64,000 nt of DNA, from the sequence record OQ885479, one strand, 5' to 3'. The translations under genes were made by a program, and so were the position numbers. Under the pieces are notes generated by a model. That model was given only the letters and a program-made list of their open reading frames with translations, did no database searches and was not told where the DNA came from. The stretch's first letter is position 1, and every line of letters begins with the position of its first letter. This stretch comes from Escherichia phage SUT_E1520. Of this stretch, positions 5,913 to 41,388 are shown in pieces.

Positions 5913-6080
5913 ATGAAAGTATTTCGATTAGTAGTAAGTGACAAACGGTTAGGTAAGAATACATCAAAATCCTTACTCGCTCATTATGGTAAAAATTGGG
6001 ATGAAGTAATGGTAGAGTTTAGTACTAATCACCCTTACTTAAAAGTCCACTCTATTAAGGAAGTGTATAATGGTTACTAA
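5913..6080 (+). CDS. hypothetical small protein (55 aa)
   Basis: ATG after SD AGAGGA; below the track cutoff. Confidence 0.35.
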   Translation: MKVFRLVVSDKRLGKNTSKSLLAHYGKNWDEVMVEFSTNHPYLKVHSIKEVYNGY

Positions 6081-6081
6081 T

Positions 6082-6160
6082 AGATCGCTAGCTCAATAGG
6101 TTTAGTAGCATCCGACTTTTAATCGGAAGGTTCTGGGTTCGAGTCCCAGGCGATCTACCA
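6082..6160 (+). tRNA. tRNA-Lys (UUU)
   Basis: Acceptor AGATCGC/GCGATCT, anticodon arm TCCGA-CTTTTAA-TCGGA, T-arm CTGGGTTCGAGTCCCAG, CCA. Confidence 0.7.
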
Positions 6161-6214: not shown

Positions 6215-6445
6215 TAAATTGATGAGGAGAAATCCTCATCATAGTTCACTAAGGTATTAGCTCGACCTAGGACTGGCTGCCAAAAAGCACGATCCCTACG
6301 ATTCGGGAGAAGTTCTAGATTAGTCCACTAGGTTCAGCGGCAACTGAATAGTGTATCGGGTTTGCGAGATGACGCGGTTCCTTCCGCTTGAAGCGAAGGT
6401 GCTGTAGTTACGCCGAGCTAATAGCCTTAGTAAACTAAAGAATTT
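6215..6445 (+). ncRNA. promoter-proximal structured non-coding RNA candidate (about 230 nt) upstream of tRNA-Ala
   Basis: No ORF or tRNA fold; 9-bp long-range helix ATTAGCTCG (6256-6264) with CGAGCTAAT (6414-6422). Confidence 0.35.
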
Positions 6446-6524
6446 GGGGAATGGGTCTGCATGGAGTGGACACCTCGCTTGCACCGAGGACATCAGAACG
6501 GTTCGATTCCGTTATTCTCCACCA
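6446..6524 (+). tRNA. tRNA-Ala (UGC)
   Basis: Acceptor GGGGAAT/ATTCTCC, anticodon arm CCTCG-CTTGCAC-CGAGG, T-arm AACGGTTCGATTCCGTT, CCA. Confidence 0.65.
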
Positions 6525-9103: not shown

Positions 9104-9180
9104 GCTTCGGTAGCTTAGCGATCTAAAGCACTCGGCTGATAACCGAGAGATCGGGGGTTTAAATCCCTCCCGGAGTACCA
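9104..9180 (+). tRNA. tRNA-Ile (GAU) with a non-canonical T-loop (TTTAAAT)
   Basis: Acceptor GCTTCGG/CCGGAGT with G-U pairs, anticodon arm CTCGG-CTGATAA-CCGAG, CCA. Confidence 0.6.
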
Positions 9181-9194
9181 AATTAAGGTTATGT

Positions 9195-9353
9195 ATGGAA
9201 GATATTGATAAACTTGCAAAAATATTTGCTGAACTTTCTGATATAGAAGTCTCAGAGAACTCTAGAATAGATATGTTTATTGACCAATATAGAGAAGGAC
9301 TTATCAGTAAGAAAGATCTTCTAGATCTAACCTATAAAGAATTAACTAGTTAG
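9195..9353 (+). CDS. hypothetical small protein (52 aa)
   Basis: ATG after SD AAGG; below the track cutoff. Confidence 0.35.
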   Translation: MEDIDKLAKIFAELSDIEVSENSRIDMFIDQYREGLISKKDLLDLTYKELTS

Positions 9354-9423
9354 TTGGCAGAGTGGTTATGCACCTCCTTCATACGGAGCGACTACAGTGG
9401 TTCAAATCCACTACTAACTACCA
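9348..9423 (+). tRNA. tRNA with CAU anticodon (third CAU tRNA; Met or Ile2 type)
   Basis: Acceptor AGTTAGT/ACTAACT, loop TTCATAC, T-arm AGTGGTTCAAATCCACT, CCA. Confidence 0.6.
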
Positions 9424-9460
9424 TTAAAAGAGCTAGAGATAGCTAACTTTAGGAGCAGCT

Positions 9461-9655
9461 ATGTTAACAATTAAAATAATGTCAGCCAAGAATGGGGAAC
9501 AGATTCATACAGGCAAAAGTGTAAGCTTTAATCCTAGAAATAAAAGATTGGCTATAGTTGGAGTAGACCAAGCCATCTTTTTAAAAGAAGATGAAGTAGC
9601 ATATGTCATGAACCAAACTGGTAAGACAGTTTCCGTATACTATGGAAAAGTATAA
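9461..9655 (+). CDS. hypothetical protein
   Basis: ORF track; SD AGGAGCAGCT. Confidence 0.5.
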   Translation: MLTIKIMSAKNGEQIHTGKSVSFNPRNKRLAIVGVDQAIFLKEDEVAYVMNQTGKTVSVYYGKV

Positions 9656-9697
9656 AGAATAAATAGCTGAGCCAAATTCTAACATCGGGGAGATCTA

Positions 9698-10066
9698 ATG
9701 AAAGCATATCAAAATCTTAAATCTGGCGTAATTAACCTTGTTCATGAAAATCAGATTATTCAGCTATACTCCGACAACGGTGAACTTAAACAGAAAGTTC
9801 TAGTTGAAGATCTAGAAGGTATCACACCACAATTCGATCCCGAAGCCTTCCGTGAAGTCAAAGTGGAAGTCGCCCCTCAAATCGAAGGTGGTCAGCACCT
9901 AAATGTCAATGTGTTAAGCTGTGATCAGCTTTTGGATGCGCAGAAACATCCTGAAAAATATCCTCAGTTGACCATCCGTGTCTCTGGCTACGCTGTTCGA
10001 TTTAACGCACTGACTCGTGAACAACAGAACGACGTTATTAGTCGTACATTTACTCAGGCGATGTAA
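9698..10066 (+). CDS. autonomous glycyl-radical cofactor (GrcA/YfiD-like; pyruvate formate-lyase C-terminal domain homolog)
   Basis: C-terminus [31 protein letters not shown] matches the glycyl-radical motif RVSGY of PflB/GrcA. Confidence 0.8.
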
Positions 10067-10147
10067 TGGGGTTTGGGTACGATTTCTCCGAACTACGTGA
10101 GGTAGTCGAGCAAACTCCGTTTATCTCCCAAGTTTTAGGAGAAATGT

Positions 10148-10462
10148 GTGGATCGAGCATTAAGACGCCATCACCGGCAACGTGTGAAGAACAACCGCAA
10201 GAAGTATTGGACAGTCTTTCCACATGAAGAAAGCCCTAAGCGGTTAGGTATTATCACTACTACTCCTTGCATCTGTTCTTGTTGGATGTGCGGGAACCCT
10301 CGCAAATATTATAAGAATAGTAAAGCAGGCATGAAAATTTCGGAGATTAGGAAAATGGAAGCAATGATTATGGGCATCTCAAATGATGAATTTGATGGCT
10401 TTGTAGGATTCGGAGAAGGAATCAGCTCAGGCTATTCCGAAGATGAACGCCCCGATCTGTAA
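10148..10462 (+). CDS. hypothetical basic protein (GTG start per track; a competing 53-aa frame starts at 10066)
   Basis: ORF track; overlapping alternative frame leaves the true gene uncertain. Confidence 0.35.
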   Translation: MDRALRRHHRQRVKNNRKKYWTVFPHEESPKRLGIITTTPCICSCWMCGNPRKYYKNSKAGMKISEIRKMEAMIMGISNDEFDGFVGFGEGISSGYSEDERPDL

Positions 10463-27672: not shown

Positions 27673-27715
27673 ATTTCTAGGAGACATTTTTTGAAAACAC
27701 ATTTCCAGAAATTAC

Positions 27716-28316
27716 TGTCGGATTTGCACATTGTGTTTCTAGAAATTTATGGTCGGATTTGCACAATTGCCTAAGTTTTTAGGAACATATAATCTCTTGA
27801 AAATGGCAGCATTATTTCGGGCCGAAGGCCCATGATTGCCTGAGTTTTTAGAGCCACAGAAACTTTCACTTGTCAAGCTATTTTGCCCCATTTAGCTAAT
27901 AAGATTTTACTTTATCTGCACTAATCTCAAATTAACCCAAATCTTCTCAACTCTTCCCCAAAATCCCCGCAAATCAGGTGCTACGCACCAAACATGCGCC
28001 CCTCTCGCAGTTCCCTCAAATTTTTCTCGATCTCTCAACTTCTCCCCAAACTCTTACAATCACACACTCTCCAATCGAAGTCACAAAAATCTTGTCGGAT
28101 TCGCACAAATAAACCCATGTCGGATTTGCACATATTCTAGTTAATTCCACAGGATTGATGCGCAGCATCGGATTGCTGGAGTTTTTAGGAAAATTCATTG
28201 TCGGATCCGCACATTATAAAAATTTTTCGGGTCGGATTTGCACACTACCAAAAATTGTCGGATTCGCACATACACGCCCACGCGTAATCCATGGGGGCAA
28301 ATGTCGGATTTGCACA
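27716..28316 (+). repeat. iteron-like array: eight copies of the 15-mer TGTCGGATYYGCACA
   Basis: Copies near 27716, 27751, 28093, 28118, 28199, 28230, 28256 and 28302, irregularly spaced. Confidence 0.7.
27880..28080 (+). other. G-depleted, C/A-rich tract of about 200 bp on the plus strand
   Basis: Strong strand compositional asymmetry, almost no G. Confidence 0.6.
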
Positions 28317-28349
28317 AAAGCGCAGGGCAATTGCCCTGCTTGCCTGAAT

Positions 28350-28545
28350 ACGAATGATAATGAGAATCATTCTCATTTAAAAAGCGGAATGTGAATGATA
28401 ATAATTCGCATTTAAGAATGGAAGTGAGAATTATTCAGGAAGTGAAACGATTCTCATTTAAAAAGTGGAATGATTATTAGTTAGATAGTGAAATGCGAAT
28501 GATACTGATTCGTATTTAAGAATGGAAGTGAGAAACACTATTATT
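28350..28545 (+). repeat. tandem degenerate repeats carrying a Fur-box-like 19-bp perfect palindrome AATGAGAATCATTCTCATT
   Basis: Palindrome at 28359-28377; repeated GAATGATAAT... and ATTCGCATTTAAGAATGGAAGTGAGAA units. Confidence 0.6.
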
Positions 28546-28660
28546 TAAGTTATCCACAGACTTATCAACAGCACGATTTGACTTGACAAAATCCTAGCCA
28601 TTTTGAGGCGTTATCAACAGACTTATCAACAGCTTATCCTACTGTATAAATATACAGTAT
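28541..28660 (+). repeat. left arm of an imperfect inverted repeat of about 110 bp, with DnaA box TTATCCACA and LexA-like box CTGTATAAATATACAG
   Basis: Reverse complement of 32386-32500 aligns along most of its length; DnaA box at 28550-28558, LexA-like box at 28642-28657. Confidence 0.6.
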
Positions 28661-28854
28661 TCCTATGCAGTGAATAATTCTAATATACAGCTAAAACGCT
28701 CTCAAACGCATTCTAACGCGTTTAATTTTGTTGGGGATACTAAAACACGGGTAAAATTGGAGGAGGCTTAGAAATTAGTTAGCGAGCTAACGATCACACA
28801 AGGCGACACGTAACACCCTAATCATTAGCAGGCTAACCATCGCGGGCGCGGTTA

Positions 28855-28873
28855 AATGAGAATCATTCTCATT
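28855..28873 (+). promoter_or_regulatory. second copy of the 19-bp palindrome AATGAGAATCATTCTCATT (Fur-box-like)
   Basis: Exact repeat of the palindrome at 28359-28377. Confidence 0.5.
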
Positions 28874-28915
28874 TGAAAATTGGGGGCACTCCCTGATAGT
28901 TGCGCCCCGTGATTA

Positions 28916-29110
28916 TTAGTCTGGTAGTCGATGCGTGATTTTTTCCTCCTCCCCGTAGGAATCCACCAAATACTGATAATAACCATCGTGATCATAAATC
29001 ACTTTATCATATTCGCCACGCTCGACCGCTTGCCGATTCTCCGGCGTATCTGGCACGTAAAAAACATCAACCATTGTACTGATCTTGGTTACAACTATTT
29101 TATTACTCAT
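28916..29110 (-). CDS. hypothetical protein (64 aa), last gene of the minus-strand operon
   Basis: ORF track; SD-like sequence upstream on the minus strand. Confidence 0.45.
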   Translation of the reverse strand: MSNKIVVTKISTMVDVFYVPDTPENRQAVERGEYDKVIYDHDGYYQYLVDSYGEEEKITHRLPD

Positions 29111-29211
29111 AATAACTCCCTAGTAAATATATTTTTGCCAATAGTGGCGAATGTTATCGCCACCAGCGGAATCATTAGCGGCCTTACTATTACCAACGAA
29201 AATATATAATC

Positions 29212-29571
29212 TCATTGCGCCACCTTTCGAAACGCTGTTTCAATACTATCCGCAGTGGATTGAATATATGCGCCTTTCATTATCAGGCGCTCGGTACATA
29301 CCTTGCGGAAAATATTAATAAAATCATCTTCATTTTCTGCAATTAATGCTTCACCCATAACCTGAACGTCACAAGATGCAAAGGTCAAAAATTGAAACGC
29401 TAGTTCACGGGCAACGACCGCATTAATTTTATAATGTGCCTTGCCCTCATAAATATTAATAACGCCCTTATAAGCTGGGGAAAGCTGATTTAAATAGTTT
29501 GCTAATAATGCTGGGCGGCAATTAGCAACAAAACGATTGCCTTCATAAATTATCATTTGCATAGCTCCCAA
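29212..29571 (-). CDS. hypothetical protein (TTG start per track; first ATG at 29562)
   Basis: ORF track. Confidence 0.5.
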   Translation of the reverse strand: MGAMQMIIYEGNRFVANCRPALLANYLNQLSPAYKGVINIYEGKAHYKINAVVARELAFQFLTFASCDVQVMGEALIAENEDDFINIFRKVCTERLIMKGAYIQSTADSIETAFRKVAQ

Positions 29572-29675
29572 ATAGTTCCGCCGATGATCATTAGCTGACT
29601 AATAATTATCAGAATAAAACCAATTGAAGGCAGGACGCCCCAAAAACGAAAAGCCGTTTTAATTTGCTGAATCAT
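29553..29675 (-). CDS. small membrane peptide (40 aa)
   Basis: Overlapping-coupled with its neighbours; single TM segment; below the track cutoff. Confidence 0.3.
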   Translation of the reverse strand: MIQQIKTAFRFWGVLPSIGFILIIISQLMIIGGTIWELCK

Positions 29676-29802
29676 TTGTTAGCCTCCCGATTAGATAGCC
29701 AGATAAAAGCATAAAGATCCCCAATGAAATGGGGTCATTTTTAAATAAGGTGGCGATAAAACCGCCAGCCATTGCAAGGATAATAACAATAACGCTTTTC
29801 AT
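29659..29802 (-). CDS. small membrane peptide (47 aa)
   Basis: ATGA overlap with the upstream stop; TM segment; below the track cutoff. Confidence 0.3.
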   Translation of the reverse strand: MKSVIVIILAMAGGFIATLFKNDPISLGIFMLLSGYLIGRLTNDSAN

Positions 29803-30011
29803 AGTACCCCACGAAACGCAGCGTAAAAGGTGGCAAAGTGTTTAACTGTTTCAGCTATCACGTTGCCGCGCTTATCAAATTTTTTCTCGGTAACACGAAA
29901 GGCATTTTTGTTACGTGCTACATATTCGATTTTACAATCTTCCCGCTCGAACGTGTTAACATCCACCAGCTTAAAGCCTTTCGAACGTGCAAGGGAAACG
30001 TTGCGGATCAT
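29799..30011 (-). CDS. hypothetical protein (70 aa)
   Basis: ORF track; SD AAGGAGA upstream. Confidence 0.45.
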   Translation of the reverse strand: MIRNVSLARSKGFKLVDVNTFEREDCKIEYVARNKNAFRVTEKKFDKRGNVIAETVKHFATFYAAFRGVL

Positions 30012-30013
30012 TT

Positions 30014-30163
30014 TTATTCTCCTTTACTAGTCATGCAGCCCAGCAGATAAGAAAACGCAGCAATGCCAGCGCCAATAATAACGGCGTGAACGCCAAAAGC
30101 TATTGCAAACAACGATAAAATAGCGCCCAAGATACCCGCCAGAATAGCTCGAAAAATAACCAT
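30014..30163 (-). CDS. small membrane peptide (49 aa)
   Basis: SD GGAGAAT upstream; TM segment; below the track cutoff. Confidence 0.3.
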   Translation of the reverse strand: MVIFRAILAGILGAILSLFAIAFGVHAVIIGAGIAAFSYLLGCMTSKGE

Positions 30164-30213
30164 TTTTTTTTATTCTCCTAGTCAGTGAGGGATATAATAT
30201 CCCCCGTTACTAA

Positions 30214-30444
30214 TTACATTAAAACAATTTTTGCAGCTTGTTTTTTAGTACAGTGTTCCGCTTTCAGCGTGTCCAGCAAAAAGCCCGCCGTTTGCTGATC
30301 GATTTTATCGGCGTTGTATAGTTCTTGGATGGTGTTATAAGTTTTAGCAATGCCGAACTCCTGCACCATTTCATGAATAATGGCGCGGTTAGATACCCAG
30401 CCTTGAGCGGTGAACAGATGAGTAGCAGAAGAGTAAGCAACCAT
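30214..30444 (-). CDS. hypothetical protein (76 aa)
   Basis: ORF track. Confidence 0.45.
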   Translation of the reverse strand: MVAYSSATHLFTAQGWVSNRAIIHEMVQEFGIAKTYNTIQELYNADKIDQQTAGFLLDTLKAEHCTKKQAAKIVLM

Positions 30445-30548
30445 TTTAAGCCTCCAAATTTTTGGGAAATTTTTAATCCACCGTTTTGGTGTAAAAGCAT
30501 TATAACAAAAAAGGCCACCATAAAAGGCGACCTTTACAAAACTTTACA

Positions 30549-31043
30549 TTAAACTACCTGTAAGGATTCAACATTGAAACATCGTTTTAATTCATCATGT
30601 AAAACAGCGTATTCCTCCCATCGGGTATTATCAGGAATATAAACAAGCTGTTTTAATCGATTTGCGTATATTACCGCTTTATTATCAATTATTTCGACGC
30701 CACCATATTTAATAATTAATTTCATGACGGAATTAATAGGATCGCCGCCGTTTACATATGTGCCGGATTTACTTAATTGATAATGATAAAGGCCAGCATA
30801 TACGTTTTCATTTTCATACCATTCGCCAGTTTCTTCGTCTTCATAGCCATCGCTACCAAAACGAGAAGCATTATCAATAGCCATTTCATGAGCGAAAGCG
30901 TCCAGATCCGTACCAGCAGGAACAAAGTATTCCTCGGTATTCCCTTCCCCGCAATAGCCAGTATGACAATCGACTAAAATGATCATATCATGTTTAGCCG
31001 TGCTCACTTCCCCTAGCGAGAAGCCGTATTTTTCCTCAGCCAT
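30549..31043 (-). CDS. hypothetical protein (164 aa)
   Basis: ORF track; SD AGGAGG upstream. Confidence 0.55.
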   Translation of the reverse strand: MAEEKYGFSLGEVSTAKHDMIILVDCHTGYCGEGNTEEYFVPAGTDLDAFAHEMAIDNASRFGSDGYEDEETGEWYENENVYAGLYHYQLSKSGTYVNGGDPINSVMKLIIKYGGVEIIDNKAVIYANRLKQLVYIPDNTRWEEYAVLHDELKRCFNVESLQVV

Positions 31044-31108
31044 TTATTAGCCTCCTATTAATTAACAAGGGAGTAGTAAAGCGGGGAAATAATCCCCGCT
31101 AAATATTA

Positions 31109-32119
31109 TTACTCGCTTTCGGTGTTAGTGGTAAAAGTAGAAATATCAATACCTTTCACCATTTCATCAATCATTTCAGCGATGTTAAAACTTTGCACCA
31201 TTTCCAGCATTGCCGCTTCCATAGCCGCCCCCGCTACCGCTTTCGCCTTTTGGTTAGTCGGTGCGTACTGGTCAACCGCTACACTCAGCAGGTTAGCGAT
31301 CACTACACGACCAATAGGTGTATCGATATAACCTTTGATCATGAATGGTGCTTTTTTAGCCGCTACTTTCGTAATTTGAGTTAATGCAATTTTACCCGCC
31401 TCCAGTTTTGCAGCATTTACAACAGCGGATTTATTGGCGGCAACGATGTTAGCAATCTTGGTCATGGTGTTTTTTCCTTTGTTTTCAGTAGTTTGAGTGT
31501 TAACGCTTTGAGTGTTAGAATTTACAGCATGGTTTTCTACGCTGTCAATAATCTGATCTTCATCTTTCCAGAAAGAAAAACCAGCGCTTTCTATATCCCC
31601 ATCATAAATATATGGGTATAGCTCCCGTGGTAACAAAAAATTACCGTCGCCATCAAAAGCCATTATACCGGTATATTGAGATCCGTCGTTATCCGGCTTA
31701 TGCCATCCAGCGGGTAAATACTTCCAGATAACATCTAAAAATCCCTCAATGCTAGAAAGTCCATTTATCAGATCAAGTCCAATAAGCTCAAAACTATTTA
31801 TATTAAATGATTGACGGCCTGAATTGCTATGATACGCAACAATATTATTACCCTGCGCAACAATAAAATCGGTATCCGGCCCCGCTCCCCTGCCTGTAAA
31901 GATATGGCAATCCCGATTATATAAAACTAGCGTTGCCCCTTGTCTATATAAGGGTAGAAAACTATCCATATCATAAGCGTCATAATCATCAAAAAAGTTT
32001 TGATGAATAGTTTCAATCTTGTTAATAAAATGTTTAATGCTGGTTGACTTGCTACCGTCTAGCAGGTTGCGCAATGCACCCTTTAATACGGTGGCATTAT
32101 CAGGTTTATACAGCCTCAT
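31109..32119 (-). CDS. hypothetical protein (336 aa), first gene of the minus-strand operon
   Basis: ORF track; SD GAGGAGG upstream. Confidence 0.6.
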   Translation of the reverse strand: MRLYKPDNATVLKGALRNLLDGSKSTSIKHFINKIETIHQNFFDDYDAYDMDSFLPLYRQGATLVLYNRDCHIFTGRGAGPDTDFIVAQGNNIVAYHSNSGRQSFNINSFELIGLDLINGLSSIEGFLDVIWKYLPAGWHKPDNDGSQYTGIMAFDGDGNFLLPRELYPYIYDGDIESAGFSFWKDEDQIIDSVENHAVNSNTQSVNTQTTENKGKNTMTKIANIVAANKSAVVNAAKLEAGKIALTQITKVAAKKAPFMIKGYIDTPIGRVVIANLLSVAVDQYAPTNQKAKAVAGAAMEAAMLEMVQSFNIAEMIDEMVKGIDISTFTTNTESE

Positions 32120-32385
32120 TTGTTAGGCCTCCTCGTTAATCGGTGAGTGAATGATAAAGGTAAATTTCTAGCATAGGCAAATATTATTTTACCTTTTTAT
32201 TTTCCTTGCCTAGCGCCTATTTTTATGATAACCGCGCAGCGGTGCAATAAAGAGCAAACCACGGCGAAGCCACCAGGCCGACGCATTGAGGCTTTACTTT
32301 AATATTACCTTACAGCGTTTAGCTCGTTAGAATGCGATTTAAGCCGCTTAAAATTGATTGCAGTTGTTAACACTACCTTTTTACC

Positions 32386-32500
32386 CTGTATAAATATACA
32401 GTAGGATAACCTGTGGATAAGTCTGTGTAAAAGTCCTTATATCGCCGCCTATCGTGTCAAGTCAAAAAGTGCTGTGGATAACTTTGTGTATAACTTAAAT
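32386..32500 (+). repeat. right arm of the inverted repeat, with LexA-like box and two TGTGGATAA DnaA boxes
   Basis: LexA-like box at 32386-32401; DnaA boxes at 32412-32420 and 32473-32481. Confidence 0.6.
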
Positions 32501-32830
32501 GATAGTGGTTCTCACTTAGCTAGATGATTTCTTATAGTTATTATTTCTCATTAATTTATATGTATATTATATATCATGAAATAGTTAGTTGGCTAATGAG
32601 ATTTTTCCGTGATTAATAGTCTGCTAATAATTCAGGTCGTTACAATCCACCAGCATGATTATCATTCTAGCAATTATTAGTCTGCTATCTTTCCGATGCA
32701 TACTAACAAATAAAAGTCAATTAATTTATTTCATAAAATAAGTAGTTATCCACTGGAAAATAAAAGTCAAGTGGATAACTAGGAAAATTTCATTTTTGCT
32801 TTTGGGGATAAGTTATCAACAAGGCTAGAA
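32500..32830 (+). other. AT-rich region with further DnaA-box-like 9-mers; origin-like or host-factor binding region
   Basis: TTATCCACT near 32746, GTGGATAAC near 32771, TTATCAACA near 32813; very AT-rich 32520-32720. Confidence 0.4.
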
Positions 32831-33225
32831 TGCGCCTAAAACGCTCCAGAACGCAATAAAGTTTTTAGCCATCCCATCATAAGGGGATAAGCCGTTTATC
32901 GTTACCACGAGCTTTTTAGATTTTGTCAAGTAGGGCAAAGCAAATATAAATGAAAAAATTACTTGCCTATTTGCTTTATTTTGTGGTATTCGCGCGCCCG
33001 TTTCTTTTAATTTTAGGCCGTCGCCGCACGGTGTCCGGTGAGTTTTACCTTTACATTTCTTTACAAAAATAAGGTTGCGCCATTTTCGGGAATCCCCTAT
33101 TATTTATCTCGTAGGGCGGCAATGACGAACTACACGGCGGGAAGTTTACCGCCACGCTCTTTAAAAATTGGGTACATCTTAAAGCCTATCGGCGGTAAAC
33201 TTATTCATTATAAGGAATCGACGAT

Positions 33226-33429
33226 ATGAAACAAACGCTTTTGATCACTGGCAAGCCTATTAAGGCACTAGATAGCAAAACAAAAAATTTGTTGACAGTA
33301 GCTCAAAGATCAGTAAGATATAGATTCACGCAGTACAAGAAAGGTCGCCAGCAAGGTCTGGAAATGATCTGGCGAAATATTATGATTGACCTAAAAGAAA
33401 ATCATAAAAAATTGCAAAAAATTGTTTGA
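33226..33429 (+). CDS. hypothetical basic protein (67 aa), flanked by a 25-bp inverted repeat
   Basis: ORF track; inverted repeat arms at 33169-33193 and 33437-33461. Confidence 0.3.
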   Translation: MKQTLLITGKPIKALDSKTKNLLTVAQRSVRYRFTQYKKGRQQGLEMIWRNIMIDLKENHKKLQKIV

Positions 33430-33659
33430 CAACCTAGCCGATAGGTTTTAAGATGTACCCAGTTCGATAAGAGCGATAACTTGATAAAATTTGACGGTCG
33501 GTGCTTACCATAATGCATCCCGCCCCCTAACGGGATATAGCGGCCTACGTGGAGTTCTTTAAAATTGATTATATTGGCGAGCGGATTGTTACTTATTACC
33601 TGCTGTTACTTTCTAGCAGGTAATGCGGAACAATCCCCAAATAACTAGGAGTTTATATT

Positions 33660-36460: not shown

Positions 36461-36515
36461 TTAAATTATTTCCCTAGCGGCTTGAAATATAGCCGCTATT
36501 TCAGGAGTCACAAAA

Positions 36516-36773
36516 ATGAAAGTTACATTACCCAAAACACTGGACGAAAAAGTATTCATTTCACCGGATGAAATGGAATCTGATAAAGTTTACAGCTTCG
36601 GGCCTATCCTAGCCGCTAAAACTAATACTGATGGCGTTATTTCCGTAGATTACCGTGATAATGATGTTGTTCCTTTTGATGACGATAGCGCTTTTTATGA
36701 GTGGCTAAGTGATAATAATCTACCCGTAAACGGTGAATTAACGCCGTACCAGATGCAGATTATTATCAAATAA
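36516..36773 (+). CDS. pre-early protein (hypothetical)
   Basis: ORF track. Confidence 0.5.
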   Translation: MKVTLPKTLDEKVFISPDEMESDKVYSFGPILAAKTNTDGVISVDYRDNDVVPFDDDSAFYEWLSDNNLPVNGELTPYQMQIIIK

Positions 36774-36811
36774 TTTAAATCCATTATTAAACTAATTGGG
36801 GTTTTATAAAT

Positions 36812-37204
36812 ATGAAAAAGCAAAATATTCCATTCGATCGCGCTCAGTCTTCCATTGTTCTGGTTTATTCTAATGGTGAACGTTATCACGTCGAGGCGTG
36901 GCACGTTATTGATGAATTGTTAGATTTCAATGATGCGATGCAGGTTACAACATTTGCATATATGCAAGGCAAACTAACAAGCCATATTAAAGCAAAAGGC
37001 GTTTATATTGACACGGTGAAACAAGAAACGATTATCATCGACGCAGTAAAATCCGGCCTAGCCTTTGCAGTTGTCGCGCCTTGCCTCGCTTGCCTTGATG
37101 ATCAGCTAGCGAGCGCAAAGGTATATACCTGCGCGGGTATTCGTTCCCATGTATCAGGTGAGGATATTAGTTTTATTGCTGATGCGTTGGCTTATGGTCT
37201 TTAA
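36812..37204 (+). CDS. pre-early protein (hypothetical)
   Basis: ORF track. Confidence 0.5.
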   Translation: MKKQNIPFDRAQSSIVLVYSNGERYHVEAWHVIDELLDFNDAMQVTTFAYMQGKLTSHIKAKGVYIDTVKQETIIIDAVKSGLAFAVVAPCLACLDDQLASAKVYTCAGIRSHVSGEDISFIADALAYGL

Positions 37205-37283
37205 TAGTTGATTTATTATTACCCGCTTATAAATAGCGGGTAATGCTGGATAAACTAAATCCCTTTAATGGAGAACGTAACAA

Positions 37284-38018
37284 ATGAATAAAGCTATTAT
37301 GAATATTTCCCGTAATTTCCCGCATATTTCCCGCGTCATGATTTGGGATTTAGACGGCACTATCATTAATTCTTTCCATCGTGTAGCGCCTTGCTTTGAT
37401 AGTGAGGGCAATTTAGATTTAAATAAGTATAAAAATGAAGCCTGCAAACATCATTTAATAATGCAAGATACTTTATTGCCATTGGTTGAATATATGCGCC
37501 AATGTATGAATGATGCAAATACTTTAAACATTATTTGCACCGCTCGACTAATGAGCAAGTCGGACTATTATTATTTGCGTAAACAAGGGTTGCGCGGTCG
37601 TGGTGATAGTAATATCCGTGTATTTTCCCGCGATACACTACACAAATATTTTGAAGCTGATAAAGTTAGCGAGATATACCACAGCAAAGACGCCATTTAT
37701 AAATCGTATTATTTTGAATTATTTAAACAATTATATCCAAACGCTGACTTTACAATGATTGACGATCATAAAGGCGTGCTATCAGCGGCGGCATCATACG
37801 GATTTAAAACGCTGGACGCGCAAGCCATTAACGATATTCTATCAATCGGCGTTGCATTGATAGGTGAAACCTTTATCGATGAATCTCTCGATGATGATAA
37901 TGATTATCAGTTCCTAGCTGATCGTTTGAAATTATGTTGGGAAAGTATGACCGAGGAAGAACGCGCAGAATATAGTTGCAGCCCGCAACAATATATTGAG
38001 AAATTAAAAGTTGCGTAA
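37284..38018 (+). CDS. dmp: 5-prime-deoxyribonucleotidase, HAD-superfamily phosphatase
   Basis: 244 aa; HAD motif I DLDGT near the N-terminus and a later DD motif. Confidence 0.7.
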   Translation: MNKAIMNISRNFPHISRVMIWDLDGTIINSFHRVAPCFDSEGNLDLNKYKNEACKHHLIMQDTLLPLVEYMRQCMNDANTLNIICTARLMSKSDYYYLRKQGLRGRGDSNIRVFSRDTLHKYFEADKVSEIYHSKDAIYKSYYFELFKQLYPNADFTMIDDHKGVLSAAASYGFKTLDAQAINDILSIGVALIGETFIDESLDDDNDYQFLADRLKLCWESMTEEERAEYSCSPQQYIEKLKVA

Positions 38019-38032
38019 TAATTAAAGTTGAA

Positions 38033-38069
38033 ATAGTCACGGTGTGTAATGATAACATGCCGTGACTAT
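38033..38069 (+). terminator. stem-loop after dmp (terminator-like)
   Basis: ATAGTCACGG...CCGTGACTAT hairpin. Confidence 0.45.
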
Positions 38070-38082
38070 TAGCTTGCTAAGT

Positions 38083-38100
38083 ACCGGGCGGTAATGAGAC
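38083..38100 (+). promoter_or_regulatory. third copy (one mismatch) of the Fur-box-like palindrome
   Basis: AATGAGACTCATTCTCAT between dmp and the small-membrane-protein operon. Confidence 0.45.
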
Positions 38101-38169
38101 TCATTCTCATCTGGGGAGCCACTGGACACACCTCCATGTGTAATCTTATGAAATTTGACAAAAGTCGAA

Positions 38170-38415
38170 TTAGCGCATAGAAGGGTCATCAAACCTGTGT
38201 TCTGGTCTGAACTCCCGGAATCTCTTCCGCGACGCCCGAGATCCATCCGACCACTCTCGCTCAAACTCCGCACGTTTCTCGTCAAACTTCCGCTCCCTTT
38301 CCGCAATCTCCCGCGTCACTCCCGCAATATATTCCCGATGCTTATTGATTGCCGCAGTCGTCCCGAAAACTCCCGCGAGTATCCCGATAATAAAAGCAAT
38401 TATAATACTAAACAT
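38170..38415 (-). CDS. small membrane protein with a charged C-terminal tail (81 aa)
   Basis: ORF track; last gene of a translationally coupled minus-strand operon. Confidence 0.45.
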   Translation of the reverse strand: MFSIIIAFIIGILAGVFGTTAAINKHREYIAGVTREIAERERKFDEKRAEFEREWSDGSRASRKRFREFRPEHRFDDPSMR

Positions 38416-38602
38416 CTAATTCCCTCTCAATTTGCAGAATACGGGTGCTATCACAACGTTGCAGTAGTACTAGCTTTTCTAGAATAACTTGTTGTTGTTT
38501 TACCTGGGCTTCTAGAGTTTTTAGGCGGAGATACACGATACGAGAGACAATGAGGATTACCCAGACTAATATTACCATTAGTGTAATTGCCACTTCCATC
38601 AT
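38408..38602 (-). CDS. small single-pass membrane protein, paralog family member (64 aa)
   Basis: ORF track; TM helix and C-terminal RILQIERELD-like motif. Confidence 0.45.
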   Translation of the reverse strand: MMEVAITLMVILVWVILIVSRIVYLRLKTLEAQVKQQQVILEKLVLLQRCDSTRILQIERELDV

Positions 38603-38706
38603 TTATGTTTCTCCGATAGTAAGGTTTCGATTCTAGCTAAGTGATTATCTAAGATACATTGCCCAATAATCACAATCCCCAGTAGTGCAATAATTACCCA
38701 TTCCAT
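38599..38706 (-). CDS. small single-pass membrane protein, paralog family member (35 aa)
   Basis: MEWVIIALLG...RIETLLSEKHK; TAATG and ATGATG overlaps with neighbours; below the track cutoff. Confidence 0.35.
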   Translation of the reverse strand: MEWVIIALLGIVIIGQCILDNHLARIETLLSEKHK

Positions 38707-38861
38707 TATTTACGCTCCTCTAATAAAGTTTCAATTCTAGATAATCTATTGCTCAACTGCATTAATTTAATCTCTGTTTGGGTTACAGAGGTATCTATTA
38801 CACGTAAGCCTGCAAAGAGAAGTATCAATAAGACGAATATGCCAATAATTACCCATTCCAT
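38706..38861 (-). CDS. small single-pass membrane protein, paralog family member (51 aa)
   Basis: Track ORF 38706..38891; start moved to the ATG at 38861 (MEWVIIGIF...RIETLLEERK). Confidence 0.45.
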   Translation of the reverse strand: MEWVIIGIFVLLILLFAGLRVIDTSVTQTEIKLMQLSNRLSRIETLLEERK

Positions 38862-38998
38862 TATAGCCACCCCGCCATAGCTGCTAACCAAAAACCTACG
38901 AAGATTAAGAATAATACAAAACCAAATCCGTAAATATTAACCCACGCTTCGTACACTTCTCCACGTCTGTTCTTTCTTTTATTTGACATATCTTTCAT
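38861..38998 (-). CDS. small membrane protein (45 aa), first gene of the operon downstream of llp
   Basis: SD AGGAGC upstream; basic N-terminus then TM helix; below the track cutoff. Confidence 0.4.
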   Translation of the reverse strand: MKDMSNKRKNRRGEVYEAWVNIYGFGFVLFLIFVGFWLAAMAGWL

Positions 38999-39152
38999 GC
39001 TCCTATGAGTATGGTATTTGGAATACCCTAGCAATTGCAGTGATTAGTATAAATATTCTTATTATACCTTCCCTAGTGTCTTGTGTGGCATCCTGGACTA
39101 ATTCTGCGCTAGGATTATCTTAAGTGGTGATAGTTACTAAGGTCGTTTTTAC

Positions 39153-39386
39153 TTAGAAAACTCCCTCACATGTATTCCCCTCAGTAAAGTAGCTTACGGG
39201 AGCCCAAAAAGACCCATAGGCCATAATTGGTGACACCAAAAACATATCCCCTTTCCTATCAAAAACATTAGCCTTATATTTCACATGATCTTGTACATAG
39301 TAGGCCTCACATTTAATATCTTTAGGACCAAAAGTAGAGCAAGCCGAAAGAAGTACCACTGCCATAGCTAAAAATAATTTTTTCAT
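39153..39386 (-). CDS. llp: Llp lipoprotein (FhuA-blocking superinfection-exclusion lipoprotein)
   Basis: 77 aa; signal peptide with lipobox LLSAC; divergent from and adjacent to the pb5 gene as in T5. Confidence 0.75.
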   Translation of the reverse strand: MKKLFLAMAVVLLSACSTFGPKDIKCEAYYVQDHVKYKANVFDRKGDMFLVSPIMAYGSFWAPVSYFTEGNTCEGVF

Positions 39387-39465
39387 TTACATTCTCCTAT
39401 GTTTAATTTATAATACTATTATACAGAATTATAGCAATATAGGCAATTAAATTTTTGGAGAACTT

Positions 39466-41388
39466 ATGAGTTTTTTCGCTGGCAAGCTAAATAATAAATC
39501 TATACTCTCTCTGCGCAGGGGTAGTGGCGGAGATACTAATCAACATATTAATCCTGACTCTCAGACCATATTCCATTCAGATATGCCCCATGTTATCATA
39601 ACAGAAACTCACTCCACAGGGTTAAGGCTAGATCAAGGTGCTGGAGATTACTACTGGTCTGATATGCCTAGCAGAATTACCCAGTTACATAATAATGATC
39701 CTAATAGAGTTGTGCTGACGGAGATTGAGTTCTCAGATGGCTCTAGACATATGTTATCCGGTATGTCTATGGGGGTAGGTGCTAAGGCGTACGGAATTAT
39801 AAATCCACAGGTCATGTCCCAGGGTGGCTTAAAAACACAAATAACAGCTAGTGCTGATCTATCCCTTGATGTAGGTTATTTTAACAGTGGAACTAGTGGA
39901 ACTATTCCCCAGAAGCTTAGAGATGGTACTGGATGTCAGCATATGTTTGGCGCCTTTAGTGGGCGTAGAGGATTTGCATCTAGTGCAATGTACTTAGGTG
40001 GTGCCGCTCTTTATAAGTCTGCCTGGGATGGTTCAGGATATATTGTGCCCAGCTCAGGATCCATAACTATCCCTAGCGACTACGTTAGGCATCCCGGAGC
40101 TAGAAACTTTGGATTTAACGCCATATATGTTCGTGGTAGATCTTGCAATAGAGTTCTTTACGGTATGGAAGGGCCTAACTATACCACTGCTGGAGCTGTG
40201 CACGGTGCTTCTAGTTCTGGGGCTCTTAACTTTATAGATAACCCTAGCAATCCCTCGGCTCCTAAGTACTCTGTAGGTTTCGCACGTGCTGATCCCACTA
40301 ACTATGCTTATTGGGAAAGTATGGGTGATCCGAATGATGCTGCTAATGGGCCTATAGGTATATATAGTGAGCACCTCGGTATTTATCCATCTAAAATTAC
40401 TTGGTATGTTACCAATCTAGTATACAATGGCTCAGGATACAGTATTGATAGTGGGCTATTTACTGGCAATGATATTAAACTTAGCCCAAGAGAGTTTATT
40501 ATTAAAGGGGTTAATGTTAATAATACGTCATGGAAGTTTATTAACTTTGTTGAGAAAAACTTTAATGTAGGTAGCAGAGCTGATTTTCGTGATGTTGGGT
40601 GTAACTTGAGTATGGGTGCCCCCTCTACTGGAGTTTCTGGCATAGCAACATTTGGGCTGCCCACTACGGAAAGCAATAACGCACCAAGTATTAAAGGTGG
40701 TAACGTTGGTGGTTTAAATACTAATGTAGTTAGTATTTATAACTTTTTACCTTCAGCATCTTGGTATGTTTCTAGTAATCCTCCAAAAATAGGCAGCAAT
40801 TATGGAGATGTTTGGAGTGAGAATCTTTTACCTTTAAGACTTCTAGGTGGTAGCGGAAGTACTGTACTATCTGGTAACATAGTATTTCAGGGTAATGGTT
40901 CCGTGCATGTTGGCACCGTGGGACTAGATCTTAATAGTAGTAGAAATGGCGCAATTGTATGTACTATGGAGTTCCTGGATGACACATGGTTGTCTGCAGG
41001 AGGTATTGGCTGCTTTAATCCTACGGAAATGCTATCTAAAGGCGCCGAATATGGAGATAGTAGGTTCAGAATGGGTGGCAATACTATCGATAAAAAACTT
41101 CACCAAATATTGTCCCTACCTGCAGGAGAATATGTACCATTTTTTACTATTAAAGGTACTGTAGTAAATGCTTGTAAATTACAGGCTGCTGGGTATACTC
41201 CAACTCCGTACTGGGTATCTGGGTTGCCGGGATCAGTAGGTCAAACGGGTTACTATACTCTAACATATTATATGAGAAATGATGGAAATAATAATATCTC
41301 TATTTGGTTAGAATCCTCTATGAGCAATATAATTGGCATGAAAGCATGCTTACCAAATATTAAACTTATAATTCAACGCCTTACCTAA
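39466..41388 (+). CDS. oad: receptor-binding protein pb5 (Oad)
   Basis: 640 aa, matching T5 pb5 length; position next to llp. Confidence 0.75.

What the first reader, a model, noticed from the sequence alone, without database searches (positions are those of the whole stretch)
28541..32500. A 3.7-kb minus-strand gene cassette bounded by 110-bp inverted repeats carrying DnaA boxes and LexA-like boxes
The arms 28541-28660 and 32386-32500 are imperfect reverse complements. Each carries a consensus DnaA box and a near-consensus SOS box CTGTATAAATATACAG. They bracket nine minus-strand genes of unknown function. The architecture suggests a regulatory unit wired to host DnaA and LexA (for example expression tied to the SOS state) or a remnant mobile cassette; no transposase or integrase is present.
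Basis: partly seen in the sequence, partly recalled or inferred. Interest (0 to 1): 0.7.

Follow-up and report, generated by a model that had tools for sequence, protein, structure and literature searches.

The report
T5 pre-early cassette's known inverted repeats
The inverted repeats are real, but they are the already described repeats that flank the second pre-early operon in the terminal repeat of T5-like phages, next to the signal that pauses DNA injection; the one apparently unreported detail is that each repeat ends in a near-perfect, family-wide conserved binding site for the host SOS repressor LexA.

Summary
Arms 28526-28657 and 32386-32517 are a 132-nt, 79% inverted repeat. Together they carry eight DnaA-type boxes, four per arm, in pairs 3 bp apart. 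Each arm ends, on its inner side, in CTGTATAAATATACAG.

The window is a T5-like phage, 99.9% identical to Escherichia phage EC148. The arms are orthologues of T5's IRC-spacer-IRD and IRD'-spacer-IRC'. These repeats and their eight DnaA boxes were described by Davison (bioRxiv 10.1101/866236), who proposed that they belong to the injection stop signal. So the core finding is already known.

No paper I could search mentions the LexA-like operator. It scores 25.5 and 22.3 bits, at or above 25 E. coli operators. It is kept in Escherichia, Salmonella, Klebsiella, Pantoea, Pectobacterium and Vibrio relatives. Its variation follows LexA's tolerance (rho 0.79).

The operators do not overlap the P11 promoter: one lies about 240 bp upstream, the other beyond the operon's 3' end. 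Simple SOS control of the cassette is therefore not supported. A mobile-element origin is not supported either: no transposase, no target duplication, fixed position.

The cassette varies in content and length (arm spacing 1.7-4.2 kb), and it is inverted in two genera.

Most likely the arms are host-protein (DnaA, LexA) landing pads tied to the injection pause. Protein binding and function are untested.

The parts
28526..28657 (.). Outer (iss-proximal) arm, orthologue of T5 IRD'-spacer-IRC'. It lies inside the T5 RefSeq feature 'injection stop signal'.
   Evidence: Inverted repeat I1. It is 92% identical to T5 (L001) 9370-9567 over the 200-nt query around the arm. T5 annotates iss at 9140-10149. 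Davison places IRD'-spacer-IRC' at 9332-9462 of AY587007.
32386..32517 (.). Inner (A2-proximal) arm, orthologue of T5 IRC-spacer-IRD. It sits in the divergent region between the two pre-early operons.
   Evidence: about 80% identical to its T5 orthologue at about 6064-6283 of L001. Davison's coordinates are 6022-6152 of AY587007.
28640..28659 (.). LexA-type operator TACTGTATAAATATACAGTA at the inner end of the outer arm
   Evidence: 25.5 bits, above all 25 reference operators. Conserved in every relative examined.
32384..32403 (.). LexA-type operator CCCTGTATAAATATACAGTA at the inner end of the inner arm
   Evidence: 22.3 bits. In 4 of 27 relatives this copy has CAG changed to CAA.
28550..28570 (+). 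DnaA box pair 1 of the outer arm: TTATCCACA-GAC-TTATCAACA
28611..28631 (+). DnaA box pair 2 of the outer arm (TTATCAACA-GAC-TTATCAACA), followed by GCTTATCC and the operator
   Evidence: conserved block
32412..32432 (-). DnaA box pair of the inner arm next to the operator: TTTTACACA-GAC-TTATCCACA
32473..32493 (-). Outer DnaA box pair of the inner arm: TTATACACA-AAG-TTATCCACA
28578..28588 (+). TTGACTTGACA motif in the spacer. It is conserved in both arms (mirror copy at 32455-32465, minus strand). Its role is unknown and no conserved -10 element follows it.
28916..32119 (-). Second pre-early operon: 10 annotated CDS. They include a T5.011-like DUF7566 protein (31109-32119) and a T5.015-like Ung-dependent AP endonuclease (29799-30011).
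   Evidence: Content and length vary among relatives.
32151..32180 (-). P11 promoter of the cassette: TTGCCT-18-TATCAT with an A-rich upstream element
   Evidence: The T5 RefSeq promoter feature is at 6411-6489. P11 transcripts were detected in vivo.
27711..28534 (.). Adjacent iss repeats outside the outer arm: DRD-type repeats TGTCGGATTTGCACA (27711-28316) and DRE/palindrome repeats AATGAGAATCATTCTCATT (28347-28534)
   Evidence: families D1-D5, D13. Davison's Repeat Region 3.

Best explanation
This is the right-hand pre-early transcription unit of the terminal repeat (first-step-transfer DNA) of a T5-like phage. It is bracketed by the family-conserved 131-132-bp inverted repeats known in T5 as IRC-spacer-IRD and IRD'-spacer-IRC'.

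Each arm is a landing pad for host DNA-binding proteins. It holds four head-to-tail DnaA boxes in two pairs. It also holds, abutting the inner pair through a fixed GGTTATCC linker, a near-consensus LexA operator.

Both arms lie outside the known transcription units. The outer arm lies inside the injection-stop-signal region, just inside the point where DNA entry pauses.

Most likely, host DnaA and LexA load on these pads as soon as the DNA enters. They would form a nucleoprotein complex that takes part in holding or organising the first-step-transfer DNA during the pause. They do not act as a promoter switch.

As a side effect, the inverted homology has allowed the variable cassette between the arms to be exchanged and, in some genera, inverted.

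Shown: identity with the T5 repeats; motif content, scores and geometry; conservation; cassette variability and inversion.

Inferred: that DnaA and LexA actually bind, and that binding contributes to the pause.
For: Identity: the window is 99.9% identical to phage EC148 and maps to its left terminal region. The arms align to the T5 arms. T5 RefSeq annotates iss over the outer arm. Davison describes the same 131-bp repeats, eight paired DnaA boxes and constant spacing in 25 phages, and proposes an iss role.

Motifs: DnaA boxes are enriched in the arms (P about 1e-10). The LexA operators score at or above E. coli operators.

Selection on the motifs:
- Between the two arms of one phage only certain blocks survive: the DnaA pairs, TTGACA, and TTATCC plus the operator. 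The spacers differ.
- In the Vibrio phage SJ1, BLAST similarity shrinks to a 49-bp core made of a DnaA pair plus the operator.
- Operators are present in Klebsiella, Pantoea and Pectobacterium relatives.
- All 17 operator variants score 16.7-25.5 bits.
- Per-position variability tracks that of E. coli LexA operators (Spearman 0.79, P = 0.006; CTG/CAG nearly invariant).

Not a promoter element: P11 lies about 240 bp away.

Cassette plasticity: arm spacing is 1.7-4.2 kb. The cassette lies opposite to A2 in Tequintavirus, Epseptimavirus and Pantoea phage AAS21, but on the A2 strand in Sugarlandvirus and Hongcheonvirus.
Against: No binding data exist for DnaA or LexA on these arms. Reviews state that experimental study of these sites is lacking and that the second-step-transfer mechanism is poorly understood.

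A T5 mutant deleted from hegG to gene 017 is viable with small plaques. That deletion presumably removes the inner arm, so the pair as such is not essential. Davison likewise reports phages that lack IRC/IRD.

It is not obvious how proteins bound to DNA already inside the cell could stop further entry.

The operator is a palindrome that a phage dimer could recognise instead. All known hosts share one LexA motif, so host switching gives no test.

Four of 27 inner arms carry a weakened operator (CAA).
Confidence: 0.5

Rival explanations
1. One reading: the arms are transcriptional control modules. LexA and/or DnaA repress or time expression of the cassette, or of cryptic promoters in the arms, according to the SOS or replication state of the host.
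For: The operators are of the highest predicted affinity. Weak promoter-like hexamers touch them: minus strand 32431-32403 (TTTACA-17-TATCCT) and plus strand 28651-28678 (TATACA-16-AATAAT). A1-dependent host DNA degradation could plausibly induce SOS during the pause.
Against: The validated cassette promoter P11 is about 240 bp from the nearer operator, and the other operator lies 3' of the operon. The promoter-like matches are 9/12 hits in a region where about 20 are expected by chance. Their -10 elements are not conserved between arms or between phages. In genera with the inverted cassette, P11 moves with the cassette and not with the arm.
Confidence: 0.15
2. The palindrome and neighbouring repeats are recognition sites for phage proteins, for example the A2 dimer or the A1-A2 complex, which release or cut the DNA to restart transfer. 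On this view the resemblance to a LexA operator is coincidental.
For: A2 is a dimeric double-stranded-DNA-binding protein required for second-step transfer. Davison proposes that A1/A2 act on a palindrome in this region. A2 is conserved wherever the arms are.
Against: A 19/20 match to the LexA consensus is hard to ascribe to chance, and the variation profile mirrors LexA's own tolerance. No sequence specificity of A2 is documented in what I could read. A2 and A1 match no Pfam family.
Confidence: 0.15
3. The arms are mainly conserved homology blocks that serve as recombination boundaries for swapping or inverting a dispensable accessory cassette. On this view the motifs are inherited from an iss-region duplication and only the outer copy is functional.
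For: Cassette content and length are highly variable between constant arms. Orientation differs between genera. The cassette, and presumably the inner arm, is dispensable. The inner arm is degenerate in Vibrio phage SJ1 and weakened in 4 of 27 phages.
Against: The two arms of one phage are only 75-81% identical, whereas orthologous arms are 87-96% identical. So there is no concerted evolution. Conservation between the arms is confined to discrete motif blocks, which points to selection on the motifs in both copies rather than on homology length.
Confidence: 0.1
4. It is a remnant transposon-like mobile cassette bounded by terminal inverted repeats.
For: There are inverted repeats at both ends of a variable gene block.
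Against: There is no transposase or integrase and no target-site duplication. The location is fixed in the terminal repeat in 542 phage records. No copy is found in E. coli genomes or plasmids. In IMG/VR the full module occurs only in T5-like isolates.
Confidence: 0.02

Closest known systems
Bacteriophage T5 IRC-spacer-IRD / IRD'-spacer-IRC' inverted repeats (Repeat Regions 2 and 3 of the left terminal repeat), as described in Davison 2020, bioRxiv 10.1101/866236. That paper credits the earlier descriptions to its references 3-6, which I could not read and recall as Heusterspreute 1987, Wang 2005 and Davison 2015.
   Same: Orthologous by sequence and position. Same length of 131-132 bp, eight DnaA or DnaA-like boxes in pairs 3 bp apart, and constant internal spacing. 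One arm lies beside the DRE/DRD repeats of the injection stop signal. A variable cassette lies between the arms.
   Different: Nothing structural differs. [quoted passage not shown] The LexA-operator nature of the inner 20 bp is not mentioned in the paper I could read.
E. coli SOS operators (LexA boxes) and LexA-exploiting mobile elements. From my own knowledge these include colicin promoters, coliphage 186 tum, CTXphi and GIL01.
   Same: The TACTG-(AT)-rich-CAGTA palindrome scores in the top tier of chromosomal operators.
   Different: Known operators overlap or abut a promoter and regulate it. These two do not overlap the known promoter. They sit in a strictly lytic phage and are fused to DnaA-box arrays.
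Chromosomal DnaA-box clusters (oriC, datA, DARS)
   Same: Several closely and regularly spaced DnaA boxes in one orientation. Davison makes the same comparison.
   Different: No unwinding element or replication role is indicated. According to Davison, T5 origins map near the genome centre. Here the arrays are duplicated in inverted orientation 3.7 kb apart and joined to a LexA operator.
Invertible DNA segments bounded by inverted repeats (Mu G segment, P1 C segment, Salmonella Hin)
   Same: A gene block lies between inverted repeats and is found in both orientations among relatives.
   Different: There is no invertase gene. The two orientations are fixed between genera and have not been shown within a population. 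The most likely cause is rare homologous recombination.

Membership tests
T5 IRC-spacer-IRD / IRD'-spacer-IRC' repeat pair | An inverted repeat pair of about 131 bp in the terminal repeat, orthologous in sequence to the T5 arms | tested here: met
   132 nt, 79%. The outer arm is 92% and the inner arm about 80% identical to T5.
T5 IRC-spacer-IRD / IRD'-spacer-IRC' repeat pair | Eight DnaA or DnaA-like boxes, in pairs separated by 3 bp, two pairs per arm | tested here: met
   Boxes at 28550/28562, 28611/28623, 32412/32424 and 32473/32485.
T5 IRC-spacer-IRD / IRD'-spacer-IRC' repeat pair | Position: one arm between the divergent pre-early operons, the other abutting the DRE/DRD repeats of the iss region | tested here: met
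T5 IRC-spacer-IRD / IRD'-spacer-IRC' repeat pair | Constant internal spacing between the two box pairs of an arm | tested here: met
   Pair-to-pair spacing is 61 bp in both arms, and the arms align without gaps. The alignment across 28 phages is gap-free.
Injection stop signal (functional) | A cis-acting site at which first-step DNA transfer halts | not testable with these tools
   Only position is known: the outer arm lies inside the T5 RefSeq iss feature. No experimental dissection exists.
LexA (SOS) operator | A CTGT-N8-ACAG palindrome scoring within the range of proven operators | tested here: met
   25.5 and 22.3 bits against 12.6-23.7 for the reference operators (matrix built from operators recalled from memory).
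LexA (SOS) operator | Overlaps or abuts a promoter that it represses | tested here: not met
   About 240 bp from the P11 start; the other copy is 3' of the operon. Only weak, non-conserved promoter-like matches are nearby.
LexA (SOS) operator | Bound by LexA in vitro or in vivo | not testable with these tools
   No data were found in the searchable literature.
DnaA-box cluster | Matches to TTWTNCACA and binding by DnaA | tested here: inconclusive
   Five of the eight boxes match the consensus and three are TTATCAACA. Binding is untested.
Transposon-like mobile cassette | A transposase or integrase gene, target-site duplication, and variable genomic location | tested here: not met
Site-specific invertible segment | An invertase gene, and both orientations within one phage population | tested here: not met
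   No recombinase was found. Orientation differs only between genera. Heterogeneity within a population was not tested.

The most novel reading that the evidence does not exclude
T5-family phages have recruited the host SOS repressor. A near-consensus LexA operator is fused to DnaA-box arrays and conserved from Escherichia to Vibrio phages. On this reading it is a working part of the injection stop signal or of first-step-transfer DNA organisation. Host LexA, together with DnaA, would then help set the pause, or the fate of the DNA during it, in two-step injection. This has not been reported in any paper I could search.
Probability: 0.3. Interest if true: 0.7.

Novelty: already known. Interest (0 to 1): 0.35.

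Why it matters
How T5 stops DNA entry at about 8% of its genome and then restarts is a decades-old open question, and no experimental dissection of the stop signal exists. The repeats and their DnaA boxes are already in the literature, so the finding as written adds little.

The LexA operator is a concrete new handle. It is the best-conserved element of the arms, it is specific to this phage family, and it names a second host protein whose role can be tested with standard mutants (lexA(Def), lexA(Ind-)) and with point mutations in the phage.

If LexA proves irrelevant, the palindrome is still the most likely binding site for whatever protein reads the arms.

Tried and rejected
1. Mobile cassette: rejected. 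There is no transposase, no target duplication and a fixed locus.

2. Direct SOS control of the cassette: rejected on geometry.

3. LexA cleavage, triggered by host DNA degradation, as the signal that restarts transfer: considered and judged unlikely. A2 is required for second-step transfer, whereas only A1 is needed for host DNA degradation, so degradation is presumably not sufficient. From my own unverified recollection, T5 also grows on recA hosts.

4. A search for the DnaA-plus-LexA composite in 5,426 E. coli genomes and in plasmids found only partial hits to the operator, or nothing.

5. IMG/VR scans. A pattern with internal Ns returned nothing, which looks like a tool limitation because known positives were missed. 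The 16-mer GTTATCCTACTGTATA found the full module only in T5-like isolates; the metagenome hits are unrelated chance matches.

6. Pfam searches of A2 and A1 gave no family, so nothing could be said about a phage protein that might read the palindrome.

7. A genome-wide host-factor screen that included T5 (PMC7553319) does not mention lexA or dnaA.

8. Davison 2015 (PMC4743489) is not held in the library. Heusterspreute 1987 and Wang 2005 are subscription-journal papers that I did not try to open. I therefore cannot exclude that one of these three already noted the SOS-box resemblance.

9. Fur-box resemblance of the neighbouring palindromes: noted and only partly followed.


Full report
**What the window is.** The 6-kb region around the finding is 99.9% identical to Escherichia phage EC148 and 90-97% identical to many other T5-like phages. 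It maps, reversed, to roughly 4.5-10.5 kb from the left end of the genome. In T5 that interval is the right half of the 10.2-kb left terminal repeat. This is the first-step-transfer (FST) DNA, the part that enters the cell first. The window comes from a permuted assembly with a single copy of the terminal repeat: the dmp gene abuts the receptor-binding and lytic-conversion genes near 38 kb.

**Check of the observation.**
- The arms are 28526-28657 and 32386-32517. They are 132 nt long, ungapped and 104/132 complementary. Weaker similarity runs another 70 bp or so inward.
- CTGTATAAATATACAG is present exactly at 28642 and at 32386.
- Each arm carries four DnaA-type boxes, not one. They form two head-to-tail pairs separated by 3 bp, all pointing towards the palindrome. 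Enrichment in the arms has a Poisson P of about 1e-10.
- I built a LexA matrix from 25 E. coli operators recalled from memory. On it the two 20-mers score 25.5 and 22.3 bits. The reference operators score 12.6-23.7 bits. The next-best site in the window scores 16.8, and the maximum over 40 simulated windows is 19.9.
- Between the arms, EC148 annotates ten minus-strand genes. One is a T5.011-like DUF7566 protein. One is the T5.015-type AP endonuclease that depends on host Ung. The rest are unknown.

**It is a described structure.** Davison (bioRxiv 10.1101/866236) describes two 131-bp inverted repeats in the T5 left terminal repeat: IRC-spacer-IRD and IRD'-spacer-IRC'. In his account they carry eight DnaA or DnaA-like boxes in pairs 3 bp apart, with constant spacing, and are conserved in 25 T5-like phages. 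The coding region between them is highly variable. He argues that both repeats belong to the injection stop signal (iss), with membrane-bound DnaA holding the DNA. T5 RefSeq places its iss feature over the outer arm. The window arms are the orthologues, at 92% and about 80% identity to T5. So the repeat, the DnaA boxes and the variable cassette are all already known.

**What the searchable literature does not contain: the LexA operator.** That paper has no occurrence of LexA or SOS. Neither do the other T5 papers I opened. Full-text searches for T5 or its genera together with LexA, and for the sequence itself, found nothing relevant. Three older papers could not be read: Davison 2015 is not held in the library, and Heusterspreute 1987 and Wang 2005 are subscription-journal papers that I did not try to open.

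**Conservation of the operator.**
- I anchored 40 IMG/VR loci on the A2 protein and aligned both arms of 28 distinct phages.
- The blocks shared between the two arms of a phage are these: an outer AAGTGAGAA..ATTTAAG block, the four DnaA boxes, a TTGACA motif, and TTATCC plus the operator. The rest of the spacer differs between arms.
- The arms of one phage are 75-81% alike, while orthologous arms are 87-96% alike. The shared blocks therefore reflect selection on each copy, not gene conversion.
- A distant BLAST search finds the arm in 542 phage records.
- In Vibrio phage SJ1 the similarity shrinks to 49 bp, made of a DnaA pair plus the operator.
- Klebsiella (Sugarlandvirus), Pantoea and Pectobacterium (Hongcheonvirus) phages have full TACTGTAT....ATACAGTA operators on both arms.
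- All 17 operator variants seen score 16.7-25.5 bits.
- The centre of the operator flips between AAAT and ATTT.
- Positional variability correlates with that of E. coli operators (Spearman 0.79, P = 0.006). CTG/CAG are almost invariant.
- The composite module is absent from E. coli genomes and plasmids. In IMG/VR it occurs only in T5-like isolates.

**What the arms are not.**
- They are not promoter operators. The cassette promoter P11 (TTGCCT-18-TATCAT, 32180-32151, minus strand) is annotated in T5 and was detected in vivo by primer extension. It lies about 240 bp from the nearer operator. The other operator is beyond the operon's 3' end. The promoter-like hexamers that touch the operators are weak and not conserved.
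- They are not transposon ends. There is no recombinase, no target duplication and a fixed position.

**Cassette behaviour.**
- Arm-to-arm distance ranges from 1.7 to 4.2 kb.
- The T5.011 homologue is missing in some phages.
- The cassette lies opposite to A2 in all Tequintavirus and Epseptimavirus loci and in Pantoea phage AAS21. It lies on the A2 strand, with the T5.011 homologue next to the outer arm, in Sugarlandvirus and Hongcheonvirus. So the segment has been inverted between the arms at least once in the family's history.
- A T5 mutant deleted from hegG to gene 017 is viable with small plaques. That deletion presumably removes the inner arm.
- In Vibrio phage SJ1 only the outer arm keeps an intact operator.
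- The outer arm is therefore the conserved core. The inner arm is an accessory copy.

**Mechanism.** My best reading has confidence about 0.5 overall. The identification with the T5 repeats is close to certain. The functional part is much less so.
- The arms are landing pads on DNA outside the known transcription units.
- Host DnaA and LexA load on them as the DNA enters.
- The resulting complex at the outer arm, sometimes paired with the inner arm, takes part in holding or organising the FST DNA during the pause.
- The sequence, geometry and conservation are shown. Protein binding and any effect on injection are inferred.
- Against this reading: there are no binding data, the inner arm is dispensable, and it is unclear physically how proteins inside the cell could stop further DNA entry.
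- I considered a restart model in which LexA cleavage releases the pause, and judged it unlikely. A2 is needed for second-step transfer, whereas only A1 is needed for host DNA degradation.
- The rivals are SOS or DnaA-dependent transcriptional control (0.15), recognition by phage A1/A2 (0.15), recombination boundaries only (0.1) and a mobile-element remnant (0.02).

**Verdict.** The family-wide LexA operator is the one lead worth an experiment, because it gives a cheap test bearing on the unsolved injection stop.

Noticed in passing
window 28347-28534 and 28852-28879: The palindromic iss repeats AATGAGAATCATTCTCATT resemble Fur boxes. The site at 28356-28374 (GATAATGAGAATCATTCTC) matches the 19-bp Fur consensus at 17/19, where 0.03 matches with up to 3 mismatches are expected per window. 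Weaker Fur-like sites (4 mismatches) lie beside the outer arm in Klebsiella, Pantoea, Pectobacterium and Vibrio relatives. Davison's paper does not mention Fur. The half-sites vary (AATG[A/C][G/T]AAT), so a different dimeric protein is equally possible.
   Followed up: partly
window 37890-37914: A second Fur-box-like sequence (GATGATGATAATGATTATC, 17/19) lies near the genome's left end, inside the dmp coding region. It is conserved in Sugarlandvirus (L040 13907-13931, 1-2 mismatches). The conservation may simply reflect the protein sequence.
   Followed up: partly
L039-L041, L043, L045 versus the window: The cassette between the arms is inverted in Sugarlandvirus and Hongcheonvirus. There the T5.011 homologue is on the A2 strand and next to the outer arm. 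This implies recombination between the arms during the family's history.
   Followed up: yes
window 27711-28316: At least seven copies of the repeat TGTCGGATTTGCACA (the DRD repeats of T5) span the expected end of the terminal repeat. What binds them is unknown.
   Followed up: no
window 32743-32821: There are four more DnaA-like boxes outside the arms. They include a palindromic pair TAGTTATCCACTGGA / TCAAGTGGATAACTA 9 bp apart, in the region that corresponds to T5 Repeat Region 1.
   Followed up: no
window 33155-33193 and 33437-33475: A 39-nt, 85% inverted repeat brackets the small gene at 33226-33429. Two TTGACA-containing promoter-like sites lie at 33292 and 33426. These are probably the counterparts of the strong T5 promoters P-H22 and P-D/E20.
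   Followed up: no
window about 36500-40500: The dmp gene directly abuts the lytic-conversion lipoprotein and receptor-binding genes. The source is therefore a permuted assembly with the two terminal repeats collapsed into one copy. In the virion, every feature described here would be present twice.
   Followed up: partly
window 28673-28710, 32818-32855 and the inner flank of each arm: A motif CTAAAACGCTC..AACGCA recurs about 40 bp inside each operator and once more at 32818. It is also recognisable in the Klebsiella and Pectobacterium phages. Its function is unknown.
   Followed up: no
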